Below, one piece after another: positions 20,681-20,774 of a stretch of DNA of 64,000 nucleotides. Under the pieces are notes generated by a model, which saw only the letters and a list, made by a program, of their open reading frames with translations, was not told the DNA's origin and did not search any database. The first letter of the stretch is position 1; each line of letters starts with the position of its first letter. Source of the DNA: Escherichia coli (lineage in GTDB: Bacteria; Pseudomonadota; Gammaproteobacteria; Enterobacterales; Enterobacteriaceae); NCBI RefSeq assembly GCF_003334785.1, contig NZ_QOWV01000006.1; one strand, written 5' to 3'. Both the position numbers and the translations under genes were made by a program.

Positions 20681-20696
20681 GATAAAACGTTTTATC
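20681..20696. promoter_or_regulatory. MalI operator 1 (perfect palindrome GATAAAACGTTTTATC)
   Basis: 16-bp perfect palindrome in the divergent malX-malI intergenic region. Confidence 0.8.
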
Positions 20697-20758
20697 AAAT
20701 TTTAGTGAGGCATAAATCACATTACGCAACGATAATAGCGGGTATAAGATAAATAAAA

Positions 20759-20774
20759 GGTAAAACGTTTTATC
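20759..20774. promoter_or_regulatory. MalI operator 2 (GGTAAAACGTTTTATC)
   Basis: Second copy of the palindrome, one mismatch, 30 bp upstream of the malI start. Confidence 0.75.

What the first reader, a model, noticed from the sequence alone, without database searches (positions are those of the whole stretch)
20681..20774. Two MalI operator palindromes in the malX-malI divergent promoter
A perfect 16-bp palindrome GATAAAACGTTTTATC and a second copy with one mismatch lie 63 bp apart (about six helical turns), positioned to repress both malXY and malI.
Basis: partly seen in the sequence, partly recalled or inferred. Interest (0 to 1): 0.25.

Follow-up and report, generated by a model that had tools for sequence, protein, structure and literature searches.

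The report
Known MalI repressor operators, malX–malI
These are the two already-characterised binding sites of the E. coli MalI repressor between the malX and malI genes, so the finding is correct but ordinary, and only its spacing argument (63 bp, six helical turns) is wrong.

Summary
The window is E. coli chromosome. Positions 20681-20774 lie in the 174-bp region between malXY (- strand) and malI (+ strand). GATAAAACGTTTTATC is exact at 20681-20696. GGTAAAACGTTTTATC, with one mismatch, is at 20759-20774.

The perfect 16-mer is letter for letter the "MalI DNA site" used by the Busby laboratory to build operator arrays. Those arrays bind MalI-mCherry in vivo (PMC5543585).

In 80 other Enterobacteriaceae species, every malX-malI intergenic region has exactly two copies of the motif. 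These are the best-conserved blocks there: 25 of 32 operator columns are invariant, against 17 of 142 elsewhere.

The spacing claim is wrong. The gap is 62 bp, and the centre-to-centre distance is 78 bp (79 bp in 75 of 80 species). That is about 7.4-7.5 helical turns, so the sites are out of phase. MalI also has no counterpart of the LacI tetramerisation tail.

The best model is two independent dimer operators flanking one shared CRP site (centre 20713.5). One overlaps the malX -10 and the other sits just downstream of the malI start.

Verdict: real, correctly interpreted, already known.

Side observation: one ETEC genome has a precise 78-bp deletion between the two operators.

The parts
20681..20696 (.). 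MalI operator 1 (malX-proximal), the perfect palindrome GATAAAACGTTTTATC
   Evidence: Exact match. Identical to the published MalI DNA site. 14 of 16 columns are invariant across 78 distinct intergenic regions.
20759..20774 (.). MalI operator 2 (malI-proximal), GGTAAAACGTTTTATC, with one mismatch at position 2
   Evidence: 11 of 16 columns are invariant. Present in 80 of 80 related loci, 41-70 bp upstream of the malI ATG.
20703..20724 (.). Shared CRP site, TAGTGAGGCATAAATCACATTA, centre 20713.5. The right half, TCACA, is perfect. The left half, TGAGG, keeps T4, G5 and G7.
   Evidence: 20706, 20707, 20709 and 20717-20721 are invariant in 78 distinct sequences. The centre is exactly 25 bp from the operator 1 centre in 80 of 80 loci. 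Assignment to CRP rests on the consensus and on my recollection of Lloyd et al. 2008, which I could not read.
20679..20684 (-). Inferred malX -10 hexamer, TATCTT on the - strand, overlapped by operator 1
   Evidence: All six positions are invariant, including 20679-20680, which lie outside the 16-mer. It starts 29.5 bp from the CRP centre, the class II geometry. This is an inference; the transcript start was not measured here.
20743..20748 (+). Inferred malI -10 hexamer, TATAAG (TATAAA in most species)
   Evidence: Top-base frequency is 0.97-0.99 at 20743-20747. It lies the same 29.5 bp from the CRP centre as the malX hexamer. Inference.
20788..20792 (+). malI Shine-Dalgarno sequence, GGGAG
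   Evidence: Conserved at 0.81-0.99 and 12 nt upstream of the ATG at 20805.
20805..21833 (+). malI, encoding the LacI/GalR-family repressor (342 aa)
   Evidence: NCBIfam NF007449, 669 bits.
19038..20630 (-). malX, encoding the PTS maltose/glucose IICB component (530 aa)
   Evidence: NF007509, 1119 bits.
17856..19028 (-). malY, encoding a PatB-type C-S lyase that also antagonises MalT; second gene of the repressed operon
   Evidence: TIGR04350, 377 bits.

Best explanation
The two 16-bp palindromes are the operators of MalI, a LacI/GalR-family repressor encoded next to them. Each is probably bound by one MalI dimer, and each represses one of two divergent promoters that share a single CRP site.

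Operator 1 (20681-20696) overlaps the malX -10 hexamer, so bound MalI would keep RNA polymerase off the CRP-dependent malXY promoter. Operator 2 (20759-20774) lies immediately downstream of the malI transcript start, so MalI would block initiation or escape at its own promoter, which is negative autoregulation.

The two sites probably act independently and not through a DNA loop.

What is shown: the sequences and positions, the identity to the published MalI site, in vivo MalI binding to that sequence (literature), derepression of malXY when malI is lost (literature), and deep conservation of both sites and of their geometry.

What is inferred: the exact transcript starts (malX about 20672, malI about 20757), the occlusion and roadblock mechanisms, the dimeric state, and the independence of the two sites.
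For: Sequence and statistics.

Gene identities.

Genetics: a malI loss-of-function mutation raises malX 7.4-fold and malY 6.2-fold (PMC12089948).

Phylogenetic footprint: 80 loci from Escherichia, Citrobacter, Salmonella arizonae, Enterobacter, Klebsiella, Raoultella, Kluyvera, Leclercia, Lelliottia, Trabulsiella and others (MalI 69-100% identical) all have malX divergent from malI. Each has exactly two copies with 2 or fewer mismatches, both in the intergenic region and none elsewhere in 542 kb. Mean top-base frequency is 0.97 in the operators against 0.69 in the rest of the region. The central CG is invariant in 160 of 160 sites, as expected for hinge-helix insertion by LacI-family proteins (established from the PurR and LacI DNA complexes).

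Geometry: the operator positions I recall from the abstracts of Lloyd et al. 2010 and 2008 are -24 to -9 for malX, +3 to +18 for malI, and CRP at -41.5 and -43.5. Both routes place the CRP centre at 20713.5, and the invariant TCACA gives the same centre.

Independence: the centre-to-centre distance is 78 or 79 bp, which is 7.4-7.5 turns. MalI residues 5-340 of 342 align to LacI 2-325 of 360, so the LacI tetramerisation helix has no counterpart.
Against: The primary mutational papers (Lloyd et al. 2008 and 2010) are not in the library. The transcript-start-relative positions and the statement of independence therefore rest on my memory plus a consistency check.

A strict sigma-70 consensus scan finds no promoter in 20560-20880. 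This is expected for weak, CRP-assisted promoters, but it means the -10 assignments are inferences.

The very tight conservation of the 78/79-bp spacing could also be read as a constraint from communication between the two sites.
Confidence: 0.93

Rival explanations
1. The two operators work as one cooperative unit. MalI bound at both sites would interact, by looping or through a higher-order complex on CRP-bent DNA, so each promoter would need both sites for full repression.
For: Spacing is conserved to within 1 bp (78 or 79) in 80 of 80 species, although the flanks vary (intergenic length 165-201 bp). The CRP site, which bends DNA strongly, lies between the two operators. GalR, a dimeric relative, does form loops with the help of HU (established knowledge).
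Against: 78-79 bp is 7.4-7.5 turns, so the two dyads face nearly opposite sides. MalI lacks the LacI C-terminal tetramerisation segment. The spacing is already explained by two -10 hexamers, each fixed 29.5 bp from one CRP site. The 1-bp difference between E. coli and the other species falls between the malI -10 and operator 2 and is tolerated. As I recall it, the abstract of Lloyd et al. 2010 states that each operator acts independently.
Confidence: 0.05
2. MalI at operator 1 acts mainly as a CytR-like anti-activator. It would contact or displace CRP bound 25 bp away, instead of simply occluding the -10 element.
For: The distance between the operator 1 centre and the CRP centre is exactly 25 bp in 80 of 80 loci, and only 6 bp separate the two sites. 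MalI is a homologue of CytR (NF008269, E = 7e-36).
Against: Operator 1 covers four of the six bases of the inferred -10 hexamer, which is enough for occlusion. The fixed 25 bp follows from class II promoter geometry. The CytR match is far below its cut-off (124 against 436 bits). No evidence for a MalI-CRP contact was found in the papers searched.
Confidence: 0.02
3. The palindromes are not protein operators. They would be chance or structural elements, such as a cruciform or an RNA hairpin in the malI leader.
For: About one perfect 16-bp palindrome per 64 kb is expected by chance. Operator 2 can form a 7-bp hairpin in the malI 5' UTR.
Against: A second copy is expected about 8e-6 times. Both are conserved in 80 of 80 species. 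The leader fold is no better than shuffled sequence (z = -0.9). Symmetric positions 2 and 15 never change together (0 of 160 sites have G2 with C15), so base pairing is not what is conserved. Rfam has no match. The sequence binds MalI in vivo.
Confidence: 0.005

Closest known systems
MalI operators at the E. coli K-12 malX-malI divergent promoters (Lloyd, Godfrey & Busby 2010, FEMS Microbiol Lett 305:28; Lloyd et al. 2008, 288:250; reused as the MalO array in PMC5543585)
   Same: Same organism, same locus and same sequence. The 16-mer at 20681-20696 equals the published MalI DNA site. This is that system.
   Different: Nothing material. This work adds the cross-species footprint and the 79-bp spacing seen in most species.
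PurR, GalR, FruR and CcpA operators (16-bp LacI/GalR-family palindromes with a central CpG)
   Same: A 16-bp two-fold symmetric site with an invariant central CG (160 of 160), recognised by a helix-turn-helix plus hinge-helix repressor encoded nearby.
   Different: The half-site GATAAAAC is specific to MalI. No inducer is known for MalI (own knowledge).
lac O1/O3 and gal OE/OI looping operator pairs
   Same: Two related operators for one LacI-family repressor, less than 120 bp apart, around a CRP-dependent promoter.
   Different: Here the spacing is half-integral (7.4-7.5 turns), the repressor has no tetramerisation tail, and each operator serves a different, divergent promoter.
CytR-CRP anti-activation
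   Same: A LacI-family repressor binds immediately next to a CRP site.
   Different: There is a single CRP site instead of a tandem pair. The operator is a strong, perfect palindrome that overlaps the -10 element. No evidence of a protein-protein contact was found.

Membership tests
MalI operators of the malX-malI intergenic region (Lloyd et al. 2010) | Sequence equals the experimentally used MalI DNA site, GATAAAACGTTTTATC | tested here: met
   20681-20696 is identical to the site in oligos D71689 and D71690. The second site differs at one position.
MalI operators of the malX-malI intergenic region (Lloyd et al. 2010) | Located between divergent malX and malI | tested here: met
   RefSeq annotation and NCBIfam. 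The same arrangement is found in 80 of 80 related loci.
MalI operators of the malX-malI intergenic region (Lloyd et al. 2010) | Positions -24 to -9 relative to the malX start and +3 to +18 relative to the malI start | tested here: inconclusive
   The papers are not held. The recalled values are mutually consistent with the sequence-derived CRP centre of 20713.5, but no transcript-start data were examined.
MalI operators of the malX-malI intergenic region (Lloyd et al. 2010) | MalI protein binds the site and represses | not testable with these tools
   Literature only: MalI-mCherry foci on the MalO array, and derepression of malXY in malI mutants.
LacI/GalR-family operator | Palindrome of about 16 bp with a central CpG | tested here: met
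   The central CG is invariant in 160 of 160 sites, and 10 of the 16 positions are invariant in all 160 sites.
LacI/GalR-family operator | Cognate LacI-family repressor present | tested here: met
   MalI matches NF007449 at 669 bits. It aligns over its full length to LacI, CcpA and RbsR structures.
Looping operator pair (lac or gal type) | Operators separated by an integral number of helical turns | tested here: not met
   78 bp (79 bp in 75 of 80 species) is 7.43-7.52 turns.
Looping operator pair (lac or gal type) | Repressor able to bridge two sites (LacI-type C-terminal tetramerisation helix) | tested here: not met
   MalI 5-340 of 342 aligns to LacI 2-325 of 360, so nothing corresponds to LacI residues of about 330-360. 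An HU-assisted loop of the GalR type is not excluded.
Class II CRP-dependent promoter (malX) | CRP site centred near -41.5, abutting the -35 region | tested here: inconclusive
   A conserved CRP-like 22-mer is centred 29.5 bp from the start of the inferred -10. Neither the transcript start nor CRP dependence was tested here.

The most novel reading that the evidence does not exclude
The near-invariant, half-integral spacing of 78/79 bp, together with the invariant 25 bp between operator 1 and the CRP centre, might reflect a functional MalI-CRP-MalI nucleoprotein complex on CRP-bent DNA. That would be a CytR-like or loop-like architecture, not two independent operators whose spacing is only a by-product of promoter geometry.
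Probability: 0.04. Interest if true: 0.4.

Novelty: already known. Interest (0 to 1): 0.07.

Why it matters
It matters little as a discovery. These operators were mapped genetically more than a decade ago and are already used as a fluorescent reporter-operator tool.

The check is useful as calibration.

The cross-species footprint made here gives a clean consensus, GATAAAACGTTTTAYC. It also shows that the whole architecture (operator, CRP site, -10, operator) is fixed across Enterobacteriaceae. MalI's inducer remains unknown, and this finding does not address that.

Tried and rejected
- Primary papers: I tried to read Lloyd et al. 2010 and 2008 by DOI and PubMed id, and Reidl 1989 and 1991 by guessed PMC ids. 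None is held.
- Further literature searches for 'malX-malI', 'MalI repressor', 'malI promoter' and 'LacI family' gave no paper with operator coordinates other than PMC5543585.
- The strict sigma-70 and terminator consensus scan of 20560-20880 found nothing.
- The Rfam scan of the whole window found nothing.
- The RNA fold of the malI leader was no better than shuffles, so the RNA-structure reading is rejected.
- The third motif hit, at 37086 with 3 mismatches, is rejected as chance. It lies in the rstB start codons and lacks the central CG.
- I tried to count E. coli genomes carrying the 78-bp operator-to-operator deletion by searching with the junction sequence. The tool joins the two wild-type pieces, so the genotypes cannot be told apart.

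Full report
**Observation**

The window is E. coli chromosome. A 1.1-kb stretch around the finding is 100% identical to several complete E. coli genomes and is present in 5,417 of 5,426 of them. The annotated genes there are:
- add (16751-17752, -)
- malY (17856-19028, -)
- malX (19038-20630, -)
- malI (20805-21833, +)
- hdhA, uidR and uidA further on

NCBIfam confirms MalI (NF007449, 669 bits against a cut-off of 310), MalX (NF007509, 1119 bits) and MalY (PatB C-S lyase family).

The reported coordinates fall in the 174-bp malX-malI intergenic region. GATAAAACGTTTTATC is exact at 20681-20696. GGTAAAACGTTTTATC is at 20759-20774, with one mismatch at position 2. The repeat extends to 18 nt, AAG[A/G]TAAAACGTTTTATC, with a start-to-start spacing of 78 bp.

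**Chance**

One perfect 16-bp palindrome in 64 kb is unremarkable. The window has two, the other at 16788 inside add, and Markov-1 simulations give 1.17 +/- 1.13. What is significant is the second copy. About 8e-6 such matches are expected in the intergenic region and about 7e-4 in the window. None of 100 dinucleotide shuffles reached the observed count.

**Error in the observation**

The gap is 62 bp. The distance relevant to phasing is centre to centre, 78 bp, which is 7.43 turns. The two dyads therefore lie on roughly opposite faces of the helix, not in phase.

**What it is**

The perfect 16-mer is identical to the "MalI DNA site" in oligonucleotides D71689 and D71690 of Sellars et al. 2017 (PMC5543585, supplementary file 3). 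An array of 20 copies gives MalI-mCherry foci in vivo. [quoted passage not shown] 2010 and 2008. An independent study shows that malI loss of function raises malX and malY transcripts 7.4- and 6.2-fold (PMC12089948). The two primary papers are not in the library.

**Independent evidence made here**

I fetched 80 loci encoding MalI orthologues (69-100% identity), one genome per species across Enterobacteriaceae.
- All 80 have malX divergent from malI, with an intergenic region of 165-201 bp.
- All 80 have exactly two copies of the motif with 2 or fewer mismatches. Both are in the intergenic region, and none occurs elsewhere in 542 kb of flanking sequence.
- In an alignment of 78 distinct intergenic regions, 14 of 16 columns are invariant in operator 1 and 11 of 16 in operator 2. 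The rest of the region has 17 of 142 invariant columns. Mean top-base frequencies are 0.97, 0.97 and 0.69.
- Over 160 sites the consensus is G-A-T-A-A-A-A-C-G-T-T-T-T-A-Y-C. The central CG is invariant. Variation is almost confined to the symmetric positions 2 and 15, and these never change together. What is conserved is therefore protein recognition of each half-site, not base pairing.

**Architecture**

Three other conserved blocks lie between and around the operators.

1. A CRP-like 22-mer at 20703-20724. It has an invariant TCACA (20717-20721) and invariant T4, G5 and G7 of the left half (20706, 20707, 20709). Its centre is 20713.5.
2. The six bases 20679-20684, which read TATCTT on the malX strand. 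All six are invariant, including the two bases outside the operator, which fits a -10 hexamer.
3. TATAAG (TATAAA in most species) at 20743-20748, conserved at 0.97-0.99.

Both hexamers start 29.5 bp from the CRP centre, so the arrangement is a symmetric pair of class II-type promoters around one CRP site.

From memory, the Lloyd abstracts place:
- the malX operator at -24 to -9
- the malI operator at +3 to +18
- CRP at -41.5 for malX and -43.5 for malI

Applied to this sequence, these values give transcript starts at 20672 (-) and 20757 (+). Both routes return a CRP centre of 20713.5, the same as the sequence-derived one. That agreement supports the recollection, but it is not a measurement.

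**Mechanism**

Operator 1 covers four of the six bases of the malX -10 hexamer, so bound MalI should occlude RNA polymerase. Operator 2 sits just downstream of the malI start, so bound MalI should block initiation or escape. That is negative autoregulation.

Three observations argue against a loop:
- The spacing is half-integral, 78 bp in the E. coli group and 79 bp in 75 of 80 species.
- MalI ends where LacI residue of about 325 aligns, so it lacks the tetramerisation helix.
- The 1-bp difference between lineages lies between the malI -10 and operator 2. The distances from CRP to operator 1 (25 bp in 80 of 80 loci) and from CRP to each -10 are fixed.

The conserved operator spacing is therefore most simply a by-product of two promoters sharing one activator site. 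I recall that Lloyd et al. 2010 showed genetically that each operator works independently.

**Rivals**

- Cooperative looping (about 5%) and CytR-like anti-activation through CRP (about 2%) are not excluded by computation alone. Each needs extra assumptions.
- A purely structural or chance origin is excluded by the conservation pattern, by the unremarkable RNA fold (z = -0.9), by the absence of an Rfam match and by the in vivo binding data.

**Novelty and score**

This is the known, experimentally characterised MalI operator pair. Only the helical-turn remark is wrong. Interest is low.

**Side observation**

In ETEC isolate L6_E562 (NZ_LR883000.1) the intergenic region is 96 bp. It carries a precise 78-bp deletion with both ends in the operator repeats. 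One perfect operator remains, and the CRP site and the malI -10 are removed. This looks like repeat-mediated deletion between the two operators. I could not count how often it occurs.

Noticed in passing
L084 2501-2596 (NZ_LR883000.1, ETEC L6_E562); corresponds to window 20683-20760: This strain has a precise 78-bp deletion between the two operator copies. The intergenic region is 96 bp, with a single perfect GATAAAACGTTTTATC, and the CRP site and the malI -10 are lost. It looks like recombination or slippage between the 18-nt direct repeats. At most 16 of 5,413 E. coli genomes cover less than 80% of the region.
   Followed up: partly
window 20748-20749, compared with L005 and L007-L081: E. 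coli and its closest relatives have a 78-bp operator spacing. E. albertii and 74 other species have 79 bp. The 1-bp difference lies between the malI -10 and operator 2.
   Followed up: yes
L007-L009 (Citrobacter spp.), between operator 2 and the malI ATG: These three loci carry an insertion of about 23 bp in the malI leader. Operator 2 lies at -69 or -70 instead of about -46, while the operator-CRP-operator core is unchanged.
   Followed up: no
window 16788-16803: A second perfect 16-bp palindrome, TCCTCAGCGCTGAGGA, lies inside the 3' end of add. About 1.2 such palindromes are expected per window by chance.
   Followed up: partly
window 10890-11410: Internal imperfect tandem repeats (offset about 96 bp, 88-91% identity) lie within rsxC.
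   Followed up: no
window 35740-35755 (-): An exact match to the Ter consensus, AGTATGTTGTAACTAA, lies immediately upstream of tus (34796-35725, -). It is presumably TerB in the tus promoter.
   Followed up: partly
window about 45936-45944: The best-matching genome (strain 300709) has an element of about 11 kb encoding an integrase, a primase and a capsid protein inserted in tqsA. The window lacks it.
   Followed up: partly
window 25722-27095: uidB is an intact 457-aa ORF in the window but is annotated as frameshifted in strain 300709.
   Followed up: partly
window 37086-37101: The only other match to the operator (3 mismatches, GATAAACAGTTTTTTC) overlaps the first codons of rstB and lacks the central CG. 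It is judged to be chance.
   Followed up: yes
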